From positions 11,488,001 to 11,552,000 of the forward strand of contig CP086569.2 of NCBI GenBank assembly GCA_009914755.4: a stretch of DNA of 64,000 nucleotides, given 5' to 3'. The position numbers and the translations under genes were made by a program. Positions 39,471 to 64,000 of the stretch are shown in pieces. The notes under the pieces were generated by a model. The model had not been told where the DNA came from. It searched no databases and saw only the letters and a list, made by a program, of their open reading frames with translations. This DNA comes from the human T2T-CHM13v2.0 reference genome, Homo sapiens. Every line of letters starts with the position of its first letter. The stretch's first letter is position 1.

Positions 39471-40120
39471 CTGCTGACTGTTTCCTCCCGGAGCTCTGCG
39501 GGCACCCAGAAACATGCAGGGAAGGGTGGAAGTCTGGCATGGTGCCCTCGCTCTCCTTGCCAGTTTCCAAACCGGCCACACTGCAGACTCCCCATGTTGC
39601 GGCACACGGGAATCCATCGTCTGGTCATCACGCCGGGGTGGCATCTTCTCTCTGGGTTCTCGCTCTTGTCTCCTACTTGGAAATGAACGAGAGCCACACG
39701 CCTGCGTGTGTGAGACTGTCCTGGCAACAGCGACACCCACAGGCACTGCCTCCTTCACTGAGAGAGGGCTTGGAACACTCCAGACTCCAACGGAGGTTCA
39801 GTTCCACACTCCCCTCCACCCTCCCAAGCCGGTTTCTCCCTGCTGAAGACGCATGGGAACCCAGAGAGCAGCTTCCAGTTCCCGCGGGATTCCTGGAGTG
39901 GTCCGGAGAGCCAGCCCCCGAATCGTGCCCCCCTCACCCCTACCCCCTCGCCCCCTTCATCTTCGTGTCTCTGGCCCCACCACCGCCATCACCACGCCCA
40001 CCCCCCACACTCCACCATCCCCCGGCCTCAGGCCTCGACGCCCTGGGACCCTTCCGGGGTGGGGCGTGCTGTCCCAGGGCTCACGGCCATTCATGAAGTT
40101 CTGGAACCTGCCTACCTGAG

Positions 40121-40140
40121 GGCCTTTATAAGAGTCGCTG
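40121..40140 (+). promoter_or_regulatory. TATAAG box ~135 bp upstream of the DUX4-like ATG (copy 1); corresponds to the position of the D4Z4 TACAA-type box
   Basis: The sequence ggcctttataagagtcgctggctggctgtccggg is conserved in all three copies (also ~48126-48135 and ~54763-54772). Confidence 0.5.
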
Positions 40141-40265
40141 GCTGGCTGTCCGGGCACGCCTCCTGGCTGCACCTGCCGCAGTGCACAGGACGGCTGTGGT
40201 GCACGGGAGCCCGCTGGCCTCTCTGCCCATGTCCGTCCGCGAAATTTCGGCCGGGGCTCCCCGCG

Positions 40266-59800: not shown

Positions 59801-62800
59801 GTCACAAAGCTCCTGTAGGCAGAACTTAGATGAGCTACATCACCTGGGTGATCAGTGCAAATGTATGTCAAAAAGTCCCCTGAAGGCAAAGCCTAGAGTA
59901 TAGTTACATCACTTGGGTGATCAGTGCCGAGATCTCTCACAATTCCCCTGTAGGCAGAGCTTATACAACAGTTACATCACCTGGGTGATCAGTGCAGAGA
60001 TATGTCACAATGCCCACATAGGCAAATCCAAGACAAGAGTCCGTAACCTGGGTGATCAGTGCAGAGATATGTGAGAATTCCCGTGTAGACAGAGCCTAGA
60101 GAAGTGTAACATAACATAGGTTATCAGTGCAGGTATAAGTCATAAAGCCTCCTGTAGGCAGAGCTTAGACAAGAGTTCCCTCACCAGGGTGAACAGTGCA
60201 GAGATGTGTCACAAAGCCCCGTAGGCAGAGCCTAGACAAGAGTTTCATCACTTGGTTGATCAGTTCAGAGATGTGTGACAATGTCCATGTAGGCAGATCT
60301 AAGACAAGAGTCCATCACCTGGGTGTTCAGTGCAGAGATATGTACCAATGTCCCCTGTAGGCAGTGCCTAGACAAGAGTTGCATCACCTCAGAGAACAGT
60401 GCATAGGTATGTCACAAAGCCTTCTGTAGGTAAAGCCCATACAAGGCTTACATCACCTAGGTGATCAGTGCAGTGATAAGTCACAAAAATACCTGTGGAC
60501 AGAGCCTAGAAAAGAGTTACATCACCTGGGTGATCAGTGCAGATATTTGACACACTGCCCCCATAGACAGAGCCTAGACAAGAATTCCATCACCTGGGCA
60601 ATCAGTGCAGATATATGTCACAAATCCCCCTCTAGGCAGAGTATAGAGAAGAGTCCTATCACCTGGGTGATCAGTGCAGAGATATTTCACAATGCCCCCT
60701 GTAGGCAGAGAGTGGACAAGAGTTACATAACTTAGGTGATCTGTGCAGAGCTAAGTTAAAACGCCCCTGTAGGCAGGGCCTAGATAAATGTTACATCACC
60801 TGGCTGATCAGAGCAGAGATACGTCACAATACACCCTGTAGGTGGAGACTAGACAAGAGTTATATCACCTGGGTGATCAGTGCGGAGATACTTCACAATA
60901 CCCCCTGTAGTTGGAGCCTACACAAGAGTTACATCTCCTGGGTGATCAGTGCAAAGATATGTCACAAAGCCCCCTGTAGACAAATCCCAGAAAATTGTTA
61001 CATCACCTGGGTGATCAGTGGAGATATCTGTCACAATTCCCCTTTAGGCGCAGCTTAGACAAGCGTTACATCACATGAGTGATCAGTGCAGAGATATGTC
61101 ACTATGCCGCCATAGGCAGATCCAAGACAAGTGTCCATCTCCTGAGTGATCAGTGCAGAAATATGCGGCAATGCCCCCTTAGGCAGAGCCTATACAACAT
61201 CACCATCAGCTGGATGATCAGTGCAGATTTATATCACAAATTCCCCTTAGGCAGATACTAGACAAGAGTTACATCACCTGGGTGTTCAGTGCAGAGTTAT
61301 GTCAAAATGCCCCCTTTTGGCAGAGCCTAGACAAGGGTTACATCACCTGGGTGATCAGTGCAGAGATCTGTCACAAGCCCCATGTAGCCAGAGCCTAGAC
61401 AAGAGTTACATCAGCTGTGTGATCAGTGCAGTGACTTGTCACAATGTCCCTGTTGTAGCCATATTCCTGACAAAAGTGACATCACCTGGGTGATCAGTGC
61501 GGAGATATGTCACAATGTCTCCAGTAGGCAGAACCTAGACAAGAGTTACATTACCTGGGTGATCAGGGCAGAGATATGTCACAATGCCCCGTGAAAGCAG
61601 ATCCCAGACAAGAGTTGCATCACCTTGGTGATCAGTGCAGAGATATGTCTCAATGCCCCCTGTCAGCGAAGCCTAAACACGAGTTACATTATCTCGGTGA
61701 TCAGTGCAGTGATATGTGAAAATGCCCCTGTAGGCAGAGCCTAGACAAGAGTTACATTACCTGGGTGATCAGTGCAGACATATTTCACAATACCCCCTGT
61801 AAGCAGAGCCTAGACAAGAGTTACATCACCTGGGTGATCAGTGCAGAGATATGTCATAAATCCCACTGTAGGCAAAGCCTAGACAAGTTTTACATCACAT
61901 CAGCGGTCAGTGCAAAGATATGTCCCAATGTTCCTCTAGGCAGAGCTTATACAATAGTCACATCTCCTGGGTTATCAGTGCAGTGATAAGTCACAATGCC
62001 CGCATAGGCAGAGCCTAGACAAGAGTTACATAACCCGGGTGATCCGTGCAGAGTAATGTCACAATGCCCTCTGTAGGCAGAGCCTAGAAAAGAGTTACAT
62101 CACCTGGGTGATCAGAGCAGAGATATGTCATAATGCCCCCTGTAGGCAGAGCATAGAGAAGAGTTTCATCACCTGGGTGATCAGTGCAGAGATATTTCCC
62201 AATACCCCTGTAGGCAGATCCAAGACAAGAGTTGAATCACCTGAGTGATCAGTGCAGAGATATTTCACAATGCCCCCTTTGGGCAGAGGGTAGAAAAGAC
62301 TTACATCACCTATGTGATCAGTGCAGAGATTTGTCAAAGTTCCCTGTCGGCAGTGCTTAGAAAACTGTTACATCACCTAAGTGATCAGTGCAGAGATATA
62401 TCAAAAAGCTCCTGTAGGCAGAACTTAGATGAGTTACATCACCTGGGTGACAAGTGCAAAGGAATGTTACAAAGCCCCCTGTAGGCAAAGCCTAGACAAT
62501 AGTTACATCACTTTGGTGATCAGTGGCGAGACCTCTCACAATTCCCCTGTAGGCAGAGCTTATACAACAGTTACATCACCTGGGCGATCAGTGCAGAGAT
62601 ATGTCACAATGCCCCCATAGGCAGATCGAAGACAAGAGTCTGTCACCTGGGTGATCAGTGCAGAAATATGTCACAATGCCCCCTTAGGCAGAGCCTATAC
62701 AACAGCCCCATCAGCTGGATGATCAGTGCAGATTTATATCACAAAGTCCCCTTAGGCAGATACTAGACAAGAGTTACATCACCTGGTTGATCAGTGCAGA

Positions 62801-64000
62801 GTTATGCCACAATGCCCCTGTAGGCTGAGCCTAGACAAGAGTTACATGACCTAGGTGATCAGTGCAGAGATACATCGCAATGCCCCTGTAGGCAGAGCCT
62901 TGACAAGTGGTATATCACCTGGGTGACCATTGCATTGATATGTCACAAAGCACCCTATAGGGAGATCCTAGAGAAGAGTTATATCACCTGGGTGGTCAGT
63001 GCAGAGTTATGTCACAAGCCCCTGTAGGCAGAGCCTAGACAAGAGTTATAACACCTGGGTGATCAGTGCAGTGATATGTCACAATGCCGTATAGCCAGAG
63101 CCTAGACTAAAGTTACAGCACCTGGGAGATAAGTGCAGAGATATGTCACAAAGTCCCCAGTAGGCAGAGACCAGGTAAGAGTTGGATCATCTCGGGATCA
63201 GTGCAGAGATATGTCTCAATCCCCCTGTGGGCACAGCCTAGACAAGAGTTACATCACCTCGTTTAACAGTGCAGAGATATGTCAAAATGCCCCTGTAGGC
63301 AGAGCCTACACAAGTGTTACATCACTTAGGTGATCAGTGCAGATATATGTCACAATACCCCCTGTAAGCAGAGCCTAGACAAGAGTTACATCACCTGGGT
63401 GATCAGTGCAGAGATATGTGACAAGGCCCCTTTAAGCAGAACCTAGACAATTGTTACATCACCTGAGTGATCAGTGCGGAGAACTGTCAAAATGCCCCTT
63501 TAGGCAGAGCTTAGATCAGAGTTACACCGCCTGGGTGATCAGTGCAGAGATATCTCACAATACCCCCTGTAAGCAGAGCCTAGACAAGAGTTACATCACC
63601 TGGGTGATCAGTGCAGAGATATGTCATAAATCCCACTGTAGGCAAAGCCTAGACAAGTTTTACATCACCTCAGCGAAAAGTGCAGAGATATATCCCAATG
63701 TCCCTCTAGGCAGAGCTTAGCCAAGAGTCACATCTCCTGGGTGATCAGTGCAGAGATAAGTCACACTGCCCCCATTGGCAGAGCCTAGAGAAGAGTTATA
63801 TGACTGGGGTGATCCGTGCAGAGTGATATCACAACGCCCTCTGTAGCCACAGAGTAGAAAATAGTTACATCACCTGGGTGATCAGTGCAGAGATATGTCA
63901 CAATGCCCCTGTAGGTAGAGCATAGAGAACAGTTGCATCACCTGGGTGATCAGTGCAGAAATATGTGACAATGCCTCCAGTAGGCAGAGCCTAGAGAAGA
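56889..64000 (+). repeat. Beta satellite array D (runs to the window end; >104 monomers)
   Basis: 68-bp monomers. The first ~2 kb is colinear with the starts of arrays B and C. Confidence 0.93.

What the first reader, a model, noticed from the sequence alone, without database searches (positions are those of the whole stretch)
39471..64000. Three DUX4-like double-homeobox units embedded at identical breakpoints in beta satellite: one amplified composite macro-repeat
Each ~2.77-kb GC-rich D4Z4-like unit interrupts a 68-bp beta monomer at exactly the same nucleotide (..gatgtgtca|tgctgactg..). Each ends at the same point (..cgacgctc(g/t)t(t)agtca(a/g)ag(c/t)|ctggagaat(a/g)gtta..). The beta monomers that follow each unit are colinear and ~90% identical for kilobases. 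So the DUX4L element was inserted into, or captured by, beta satellite once, and the whole DUX4L plus beta block was then amplified in tandem. Periods are 8001 and 6639 bp; the difference is about 20 monomers of beta. This is the organisation expected of the dispersed 3.3-kb repeat family on acrocentric short arms and other heterochromatin, not the head-to-tail 4q35/10q26 D4Z4 array. It sits right beside an HSat3 block.
Basis: partly seen in the sequence, partly recalled or inferred. Interest (0 to 1): 0.7.

Follow-up and report, generated by a model that had tools for sequence, protein, structure and literature searches.

The report
Known DUX4-pseudogene / beta-satellite composite repeat
The three GC-rich units are decayed copies of the DUX4-bearing D4Z4 repeat set in beta satellite, a composite repeat already described in human heterochromatin and very probably the annotated Y-chromosome pseudogenes DUX4L16, DUX4L17 and DUX4L18, so the finding is real but ordinary.

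Summary
Three 2.76-kb, 65% GC units (39471-42228, 47474-50239, 54121-56878) interrupt 68-bp beta satellite at the same nucleotide on the left. All three end at the same point on the right, and the flanking monomers are colinear. Each unit carries a full-length but dead DUX4 reading frame with two homeodomains.

Of 122 other copies found in human-derived contigs, 105 have the identical left junction, and the right junction and more than 2 kb of right-hand monomer order recur in the contigs examined. Published DUX4 exon-3 primers from the 4qA pLAM region align across that right junction.

The three window copies share almost no derived changes. They radiate from a family consensus that still has an intact DUX4 frame, and each has decayed about 7-8% by GC-to-AT change.

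This is the "LSAU-BETA composite" or "beta-composite array" of the T2T papers, known since 1989-1995. The spacing of the reading frames (8003 and 6637 bp) matches coordinates derived for DUX4L16/17/18 on chrY to within 2 bp. Novelty: already known. Interest: low.

The parts
24205..37441 (+). HSat3-type (ATTCC)n satellite block, given as context. It has two sub-blocks: an ACTCC-rich part up to about 31 kb, then a canonical ATTCC part.
   Evidence: TRF finds period 5 with 2622 copies. GC skew is -0.6 to -0.8. The k-mer make-up differs between the two sub-blocks.
37472..39470 (+). Partial beta-satellite block to the left of unit 1. It is colinear with the tails of the later beta blocks, so the composite array is cut off at the HSat3 junction.
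   Evidence: TRF finds a 68-bp period. Matching diagonals: 37461-38218 with 46347-47104, and 39130-39427 with 47133-47430. The junction sequence was read directly.
39471..42228 (+). Composite unit 1, a D4Z4/LSau-type element of 2758 bp; inferred to be DUX4L16.
   Evidence: Junction alignments. It is 93.0% identical to the family consensus. Coordinate match to DUX4L16.
40266..41528 (+). DUX4 reading-frame remnant of unit 1, broken by frameshifts (frame 1 to 3 to 1) and stop codons.
   Evidence: tblastn with DUX4; ORF list.
42229..47473 (+). Beta-satellite block A, about 77 monomers.
   Evidence: TRF; colinearity with blocks B and C and with contigs L033 and L057.
47474..50239 (+). Composite unit 2, 2766 bp; inferred to be DUX4L17.
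48269..49531 (+). DUX4 reading-frame remnant of unit 2. It stays in one frame, is 80% identical to DUX4 and has 2 in-frame stops, at codons 111 and 141.
   Evidence: tblastn; match to PDB 5z6z human DUX4, E = 1.8e-80; two Pfam homeodomains.
50098..50239 (+). Tail of unit 2, which is absent from head-to-tail D4Z4. It is a diverged second copy of the region just 5' of the DUX4 ATG through codon 9, and corresponds to the 4qA pLAM/exon-3 region. The equivalent tails lie at about 42060-42228 in unit 1 and 56710-56878 in unit 3.
   Evidence: Homology to the read-through contig L099 stops at window 50097. In the consensus, offsets 2598-2766 match offsets 630-821 at 83% identity, score 83.5 against a shuffle maximum of 22. 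Published exon-3 primers align across the junction.
50240..54120 (+). Beta-satellite block B, about 57 monomers, with an internal 1024-bp duplication.
54121..56878 (+). Composite unit 3, 2758 bp; inferred to be DUX4L18.
54906..56171 (+). DUX4 reading-frame remnant of unit 3. It stays in one frame, is 81% identical to DUX4 and has 5 in-frame stops.
   Evidence: tblastn; Pfam.
56879..64000 (+). Beta-satellite block C, which runs off the window. It holds an internal duplication of about 2.7 kb, and its end is colinear with the tail of block A, which predicts a fourth unit just past the window.
   Evidence: 57403-58118 matches 60202-60917, and 45563-46889 matches 62258-63584. The derived DUX4L19 coordinate falls at window 65677.

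Best explanation
This is a stretch of the human LSAU-beta-satellite composite repeat, most probably the Yq11.1 array that carries the annotated pseudogenes DUX4L16, DUX4L17 and DUX4L18.

Origin. A D4Z4 fragment was joined once, in an ancestor, into a single 68-bp beta-satellite monomer. The fragment comprised the DUX4 retrogene with about 0.8 kb upstream and 0.6 kb downstream, plus a 0.17-kb partial second copy of the DUX4 5' region. The join has a 2-nt CA overlap on the left and removed at most 11 nt of the monomer.

Spread. The resulting composite, meaning the unit plus a fixed order of beta monomers, was then multiplied and spread through heterochromatin by unequal exchange and segmental duplication. 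The distal end of the 4qA D4Z4 array (pLAM/exon 3) keeps the same right junction.

This locus. At least three and a half composite units sit head to tail next to HSat3. They have not been homogenised since. Each has drifted 7-8% from the family consensus, mostly by CpG deamination and other GC-to-AT changes, as expected of methylated heterochromatin. Whole beta monomers have been gained and lost, giving periods of 8003, 6647 and more than 9880 bp.

Function. All three DUX4 frames are dead, and none has ATTAAA at the position that I recall, from memory, as the 4qA polyadenylation signal. The array has no coding function.

What is shown and what is inferred. Shown: the anatomy, the shared junctions, the star-like divergence and the dead frames. 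Inferred: the joining mechanism, the methylation, the age (very roughly 15-40 million years) and the Y location.
For: Anatomy and identical junctions. Colinear flanks and whole-monomer indels.

DUX4 identity and inactivation.

Family-wide junctions: 105 of 122 copies in human-derived metagenome contigs have the same left junction, and 17 of 122 read through into D4Z4. The same right junction was seen in the listed contigs.

Right-flank monomer order is shared for at least 2.3 kb. Blocks A, B and C are about 92% identical to each other and 95-96% identical to L033 and L057.

Star phylogeny: 2 changes are shared by all three units and 10-14 by each pair, against 142-166 private changes per unit. 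The units are 92-93% identical to the consensus, while contig units have a median of 98.1%.

The family consensus keeps an intact 424-codon DUX4 frame, and the substitutions are GC-to-AT biased, with 60-80 CpG transitions per unit.

The tail is a duplicate of the DUX4 5' region. Published pLAM exon-3 primers span the right junction.

Literature: the LSAU-BETA composite occurs on 16 chromosomes, with 80-95% identity in centromere transition regions; beta-composite arrays with LSau; D4Z4 homologues interspersed with beta satellite.

Y placement: one offset of 11,266,651 maps the derived DUX4L16 start, DUX4L17 start and DUX4L18 end onto window 40266, 48269 and 56173. These match the frame remnants within 2 bp.
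Against: The window was never aligned to a human reference. The Y placement rests on gene distances printed in one table of an unrelated paper, and a paralogous array with identical spacing cannot be formally excluded.

They are redundant across samples and only presumed to be human contamination. None of them is the window's own locus (best identity 93%).

All three units share a TGA at codon 111. This could be a trace of a short private common stem rather than parallel CpG hits.

The age estimate is loose, because GC-rich and Y-linked DNA mutates faster than average.

The polyadenylation-signal comparison rests on my memory of the pLAM sequence beyond the published primers.
Confidence: 0.88

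Rival explanations
1. The three D4Z4-like units were inserted independently into beta satellite, for example at a preferred target site, rather than being copies of one composite.
For: The three units are equidistant at about 86% identity and share almost no derived changes. Taken alone, that is what independent arrivals from one source would give.
Against: Both breakpoints are identical. The flanking monomers carry the same diagnostic variants, in the same order, for hundreds to thousands of bases on both sides. The same flanks accompany the unit at other genomic copies.
Confidence: 0.02
2. The same composite array, but on an autosome (an acrocentric short arm, 1q12, 9q12 or the chromosome 10 pericentromere) rather than on Yq11.1.
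For: LSAU-beta composites occur on 16 chromosomes, and HSat3 occurs on many.
Against: Three independent distances (8003 bp, 6637 bp and the frame end) agree within 2 bp with coordinates derived for DUX4L16/17/18 on chrY. The derived DUX4L19 start falls 1.7 kb beyond the window, where colinearity predicts a fourth unit. The beta blocks here change length through frequent monomer indels, so a paralogue with identical spacing is unlikely.
Confidence: 0.1
3. The units are functional DUX4 paralogues: expressed double-homeobox genes embedded in satellite DNA, as reported for DUX1 and other genes in 3.3-kb elements.
For: The reading frames are full length, and in units 2 and 3 they stay in one frame. 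The literature reports transcription from dispersed 3.3-kb elements, and a DUX1 protein.
Against: Unit 1 has frameshifts and stops, unit 2 has 2 stops and unit 3 has 5. All three have a stop at codon 111, between the two homeoboxes. Substitutions are spread evenly and show neutral GC-to-AT decay.
Confidence: 0.02
4. An assembly artefact: one composite unit wrongly expanded into three during assembly of a repetitive region.
For: Satellite regions are prone to misassembly.
Against: The copies differ by about 14% in the units and about 8% in the beta flanks. They also differ by private indels and in block length. Misassembly of a single locus would not create such differences.
Confidence: 0.01

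Closest known systems
LSAU-BETA (LSAU-BSAT) composite repeat, also called beta-composite arrays (Hoyt et al., bioRxiv 10.1101/2021.07.12.451456; Altemose et al., 10.1101/2021.07.12.452052; earlier Agresti 1989, Meneveri 1993, Lyle 1995, as cited in those papers)
   Same: 68-bp beta satellite is interspersed with LSau/D4Z4-homologous, DUX4-bearing GC-rich units arranged in tandem. Identity within the array is 80-95%, as reported for centromere transition regions. The junctions are the same as in other genomic copies sampled here.
   Different: Nothing essential differs. The beta blocks here are long and of variable length (3.9 kb, 5.2 kb and more than 7.1 kb; one sampled contig has 1.8 kb). The copies are more decayed, at 92-93% identity to the consensus, than most sampled copies (median 98%).
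D4Z4 macrosatellite at 4q35/10q26 (the FSHD locus)
   Same: The DUX4 retrogene and its flanking sequence are homologous. The right junction with beta satellite is homologous to the distal partial unit, pLAM (exon 3) and beta satellite of 4qA.
   Different: The units are not arranged head to tail. Each lacks about 0.6 kb of the roughly 3.2-3.3-kb repeat and carries the pLAM-like tail instead. The frames are broken, the copies are 86% identical rather than near 100%, and none has ATTAAA at the position I recall as the 4qA polyadenylation signal (the comparison beyond the primers is from memory).
DUX4L pseudogenes DUX4L16-DUX4L19 on chrY (as placed in Table 1 of PMC8135009)
   Same: The spacing and extent of the three frame remnants match the derived coordinates within 2 bp. 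A fourth gene is expected just past the window.
   Different: Identity was inferred from distances only. No sequence comparison with the reference was possible.

Membership tests
LSAU-beta satellite composite repeat | Arrays of 68-bp beta-satellite monomers | tested here: met
   TRF finds a 68-bp period with 29, 77, 57 and 104 copies at 76-79% matches.
LSAU-beta satellite composite repeat | A GC-rich LSau/D4Z4-homologous element interspersed in the beta satellite | tested here: met
   The units have GC 0.65-0.66 and are 90-91% identical over 3.07-3.09 kb (unit plus 0.3 kb of right flank) to contig L057, whose unit is preceded by D4Z4-type sequence. A DUX4 frame is present. No Repbase or Dfam LSAU model was available for direct comparison.
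LSAU-beta satellite composite repeat | The composite unit (element plus beta block) is repeated in tandem | tested here: met
   There are three full units plus a partial leading block, all on the + strand, with colinear diagonals.
LSAU-beta satellite composite repeat | The same element/beta junctions as other genomic members | tested here: met
   105 of 122 sampled copies share the left junction. The right junction and at least 2.3 kb of right flank are shared with the contigs examined.
D4Z4 macrosatellite (4q35/10q26 type) | Head-to-tail units of about 3.3 kb with no intervening satellite | tested here: not met
   The units are 2.76 kb and are separated by 3.9-7.1 kb of beta satellite. About 0.6 kb present in the read-through contig L099 is absent here.
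D4Z4 macrosatellite (4q35/10q26 type) | An intact DUX4 open reading frame in each unit | tested here: not met
   All three units carry stops or frameshifts.
DUX (double homeobox) genes | Two paired-class homeodomains in one frame | tested here: met
   Pfam PF00046 matches twice, E = 1e-29 to 1e-31. Residues 1-153 align to human DUX4 structure 5z6z at E = 1.8e-80. This holds at the level of sequence homology only.
DUX (double homeobox) genes | A translatable gene | tested here: not met
   A stop at codon 111 lies between the homeoboxes in all three units, and there are further stops and frameshifts. These are pseudogenes.
Human satellite 3 (the neighbouring block) | A diverged (ATTCC)n pentamer array | tested here: met
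   TRF finds period 5 with consensus TCCAT over 13.2 kb. The HSat3 subfamily was not determined.

The most novel reading that the evidence does not exclude
The Y-linked copies are unhomogenised fossils of the founding composite. Together with the shared junctions, they would show that every human LSAU-beta composite and the distal end of the 4qA/10q D4Z4 arrays descend from one D4Z4-into-beta-monomer joining event. On that reading, DUX4 exon 3 and the disease-permissive polyadenylation signal were built by point mutation out of the first beta-satellite monomer after that junction. The Y copies would then record alternative states of that site: GGCACAAT in unit 1, GTCCCAAT in unit 2 and ATCAAAAT in unit 3.
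Probability: 0.5. Interest if true: 0.3.

Novelty: already known. Interest (0 to 1): 0.15.

Why it matters
The finding matters little beyond correct annotation. It confirms that the scan can recognise the LSAU-beta composite, and it shows that these DUX4-like frames are dead copies that should not be counted as genes.

There is minor value for people who study how the FSHD locus evolved. This decayed array, the intact-frame family consensus and the shared junctions give an internally consistent picture of a single D4Z4/beta-satellite capture. The pLAM exon-3 region lies on the same right junction as every composite unit.

Tried and rejected
- The first blastn comparison of whole blocks merged or lost alignments in the satellite. 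I replaced it with an ungapped diagonal scan.
- An Rfam scan of the whole window at gathering thresholds found nothing, including no match for the MIR8078 said to overlap LSAU.
- A scan of viral contigs for the left-junction 23-mer gave no hits.
- Exact-product look-ups for a 321-aa ORF in unit 2 and for a 293-aa L1 ORF found no contigs, so the locus could not be extended or placed that way.
- None of the 120 metagenome contigs carried 4qA-type exon 3 (primer sequence within 2 mismatches: 0 hits). The pLAM link therefore rests on the published primers and, beyond them, on memory.
- The T2T-Y and 43-Y papers were searched for a description of this array. They mention HSat3/DYZ17 and the LSAU-BSAT composite only on chr22.
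- I considered whether the low transition-to-transversion ratio (about 1) meant synthetic or misaligned sequence. It is explained by 70% GC content and GC-to-AT bias, and the contig units show the same spectrum.
- I considered whether the 11 nt before the right-hand beta monomer are diverged beta sequence. The internal duplicate shows that the sequence up to ..CCGACG is D4Z4-derived, which leaves about 5 ambiguous nt.
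Full report
**What is in the window.** The composition profile and TRF divide the window into three parts. Bases 1-24.2 kb are AT-rich interspersed-repeat DNA. This part holds a minus-strand L1 with ORF1/ORF2 fragments at about 1.5-7.4 kb and an Alu near 11.4 kb. 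A (TCCAT)n, or ATTCC-type, HSat3 block lies at 24205-37441. From 37472 to the end there is 68-bp beta satellite, interrupted three times by GC-rich DNA.

**Check of the observation.** Printing and aligning the junctions shows that all three GC-rich units start at the same nucleotide of a beta monomer..GATCAGTTCAGAGATGTGTCA|TGCTGACTGTTT. Unit 1 has a C in place of the last A. A 23-mer across the junction occurs exactly three times in the window and never in shuffles. All three units end at ..CCAACACCTTCCGACGCTC, followed by TAGTCAAAGCCTGGAGAAT... Both breaks therefore fall inside one monomer, 11 nt apart.

The units are 2758, 2766 and 2758 bp long and 86% identical pairwise. An ungapped diagonal scan shows colinearity through the units and into both flanks. 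Diagonals are 8002-8011 for A/B and 6637-6647 for B/C. They then shift by whole monomers and by internal duplications: 1024 bp in block B and about 2.7 kb in block C. The 2 kb of beta satellite to the left of unit 1 is colinear with the tails of the later blocks, so the array is cut off at the HSat3 border. The end of block C is colinear with the tail of block A, which predicts a fourth unit just beyond base 64000.

**What the units are.** Its first 153 residues were afterwards verified against PDB entry 5z6z. The search finds a full-length DUX4 frame in each unit. In unit 1 the frame (40266-41528) is broken by frameshifts and stops. In unit 2 (48269-49531) it stays in one frame, is 80% identical to DUX4 and has two stops. 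In unit 3 (54906-56171) it stays in one frame, is 81% identical and has five stops. Pfam finds two homeodomains. All three units have TGA in place of CGA at codon 111, between the homeoboxes. They are pseudogenes.

**Related copies elsewhere.** A 23-mer that is invariant in the three units, 14 nt inside the left end, was scanned against metagenome contigs. These are evidently human contamination.

- Left junction. Of the 122 copies of the 23-mer, 105 are preceded by the same beta junction as in the window, with 30 distinct upstream monomer sequences. The other 17 read through into GC-rich D4Z4 sequence (..GAAAGGCTGGCCA|TGCCGACTGTTTG). The break therefore has a CA overlap.
- Right junction. It is the same in the listed contigs.
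- Right flank. In long contigs the flank is colinear with window blocks A, B and C for at least 2.3 kb.
- Own locus. None of the contigs is the window's own locus; the best identity is 93%.

The capture of D4Z4 by beta satellite is thus a family-wide ancestral event and not specific to this place.

**Relationship among the copies.** I built a consensus from 51 distinct complete contig units. Against it, the window units are 93.0%, 92.0% and 92.2% identical, while the contig units have a median identity of 98.1%. Only 2 substitutions are shared by all three window units and 10-14 by each pair, which is about the level of coincident hits. Each unit has 142-166 private substitutions.

The beta flanks give the same picture. 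Blocks A, B and C are about 92% identical to each other and 95-96% identical to contigs L033 and L057. The three copies therefore radiate directly from the family ancestor. Local tandem amplification cannot be told apart from arrival of a block that already held several units, and no homogenisation followed.

The consensus keeps an intact 424-codon DUX4 frame. The private changes are strongly biased from GC to AT: C>T 90-112, C>A 43-60 and T>C 8-11 per unit, including 60-80 CpG transitions. CpG observed/expected falls from 0.69 in the consensus to about 0.55 in the units. This is neutral decay of the kind expected for methylated heterochromatin; the methylation itself is inferred. A divergence of 4-5% per lineage at non-CpG sites suggests an age of tens of millions of years, but the estimate is loose.

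**Fine anatomy of the right end.** In contig L099 a beta-flanked unit continues into a second, D4Z4-type unit 3225 bp further on. Homology to the window units stops about 165 bp before the beta junction, at window 50097 in unit 2. The remaining tail is an 83%-identical second copy of the region from about 165 bp upstream of the DUX4 ATG through codon 9, with the ATG deleted. Its alignment score is 83.5, against a shuffle maximum of 22.

Snider et al. (PMC2965761) published reverse primers 183 and 184 for the 3' part of DUX4-fl, and describe exon 3 as lying in pLAM. Merged and reverse-complemented, these primers align across the right junction of all three units. Their last 33 nt match the beta consensus at 29 of 33 positions. 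The distal end of the 4qA array therefore carries the same right junction. From my memory of the pLAM sequence, the ATTAAA signal corresponds to GTCACAAT in the first beta monomer. At that position the window units have GGCACAAT, GTCCCAAT and ATCAAAAT, and none has ATTAAA.

**Location.** Table 1 of PMC8135009 lists peaks on chrY with distances to the flanking 5' and 3' genes. From these distances, DUX4L16 starts at 11,306,917, DUX4L17 starts at 11,314,920, DUX4L18 ends at 11,322,824 and DUX4L19 starts at 11,332,328. Subtracting one offset, 11,266,651, gives window positions 40266, 48269, 56173 and 65677. The first three match the starts of frames 1 and 2 exactly and the end of frame 3 within 2 bp. 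The fourth lies just past the window, where a fourth unit is predicted. The window is therefore very probably Yq11.1, and the units are the annotated pseudogenes DUX4L16, DUX4L17 and DUX4L18. This is an inference from distances and has not been checked by sequence alignment.

**Comparison with what is known.** Hoyt et al. name the "LSAU-BETA composite", found on 16 chromosomes both as arrays and as single units. They report 80-95% identity within arrays in centromere transition regions. [quoted passage not shown] Bodega et al. state that D4Z4 homologues are interspersed with beta satellite at many heterochromatic loci. The DUX4 review recalls hundreds of dispersed 3.3-kb elements. The T2T-Y paper mentions a large LSAU-BSAT array on chr22. 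Every defining feature of the composite that I could test is met. The features of the head-to-tail 4q35 D4Z4 array are not met.

**Verdict.** The extra points found here are consistent with the literature and of modest interest. These are the identical junctions genome-wide, the star-like decay from an intact-frame ancestor, and the pLAM exon-3 region sitting on the common right junction.

Noticed in passing
window 42229-42300, 50240-50310 and 56879-56950 (first beta monomer after each unit): Published DUX4 exon-3 (pLAM) primer sequences align across the unit/beta right junction. The position that I recall as the 4qA ATTAAA polyadenylation signal reads GGCACAAT in unit 1, GTCCCAAT in unit 2 and ATCAAAAT in unit 3. 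Exon 3 of DUX4 appears to be partly derived from beta satellite.
   Followed up: partly
window about 42060-42228, 50098-50239 and 56710-56878, compared with 40100-40292, 48100-48295 and 54740-54932: The last 140-170 bp or so of each unit is an 83%-identical second copy of the region just upstream of the DUX4 ATG through codon 9, with the ATG removed by a 13-bp deletion. The head-to-tail D4Z4 read-through contig L099 lacks this tail.
   Followed up: yes
loci L001-L120 (human-derived metagenome contigs): The consensus of 51 distinct composite units keeps an intact 424-codon DUX4-like frame. It differs from DUX4 at only 2 of the first 153 residues (counted by eye), so most genomic composite copies are far less decayed than the three in the window.
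   Followed up: partly
L099 (offsets 535 and 3760) and L037 (offsets 425 and 4973), oriented so that the 23-mer used for the scan reads on the + strand: These are hybrid arrangements. In L099 a beta-flanked unit continues head to tail into a D4Z4-type unit with a period of 3225 bp. In L037 a unit with a D4Z4-type left side is followed, after about 1.8 kb of beta satellite, by a beta-flanked unit. Short D4Z4 runs of more than one unit therefore also sit inside beta satellite.
   Followed up: no
window 40596-40598, 48599-48601 and 55236-55238 (codon 111 of each frame remnant): All three units have TGA where the family consensus has CGA. This is either a parallel CpG hit (about 1.6 such triple coincidences are expected by chance) or the only trace of a short common stem for the three copies.
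   Followed up: partly
window 24205-37441: The HSat3 block has two sub-blocks. From 24.2 to 31 kb it has GC 0.46 and is rich in an ACTCC variant, with only about 30% canonical pentamers. From 31 to 37.4 kb it has GC 0.40 and about 51% canonical ATTCC. At about 24.2 kb it abuts a truncated L1 3' region with no transition zone.
   Followed up: partly
window 57403-60137 compared with 60202-62733, and 51791-52306 compared with 52815-53330: There are internal duplications within the beta blocks: about 2.7 kb in block C at 86-89% identity, and 1024 bp (15 monomers) in block B at 88%. They account for much of the difference in length between periods.
   Followed up: partly
window 39471-42228, 47474-50239 and 54121-56878: The transition-to-transversion ratio of private changes is only 1.0-1.3 because C>A (G>T) changes are frequent, at 43-60 per unit. 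The pooled contig units show the same tendency, with a ratio of 1.5.
   Followed up: partly
window 1469-7419 (minus strand), 11363-11698 and 11205-11277: A degraded L1 is present, with ORF2 endonuclease and reverse-transcriptase fragments and an ORF1 fragment. There is also an Alu-like ORF and a perfect 37-bp tandem duplication. These are ordinary interspersed repeats on the far side of the HSat3 block from the composite array.
   Followed up: no
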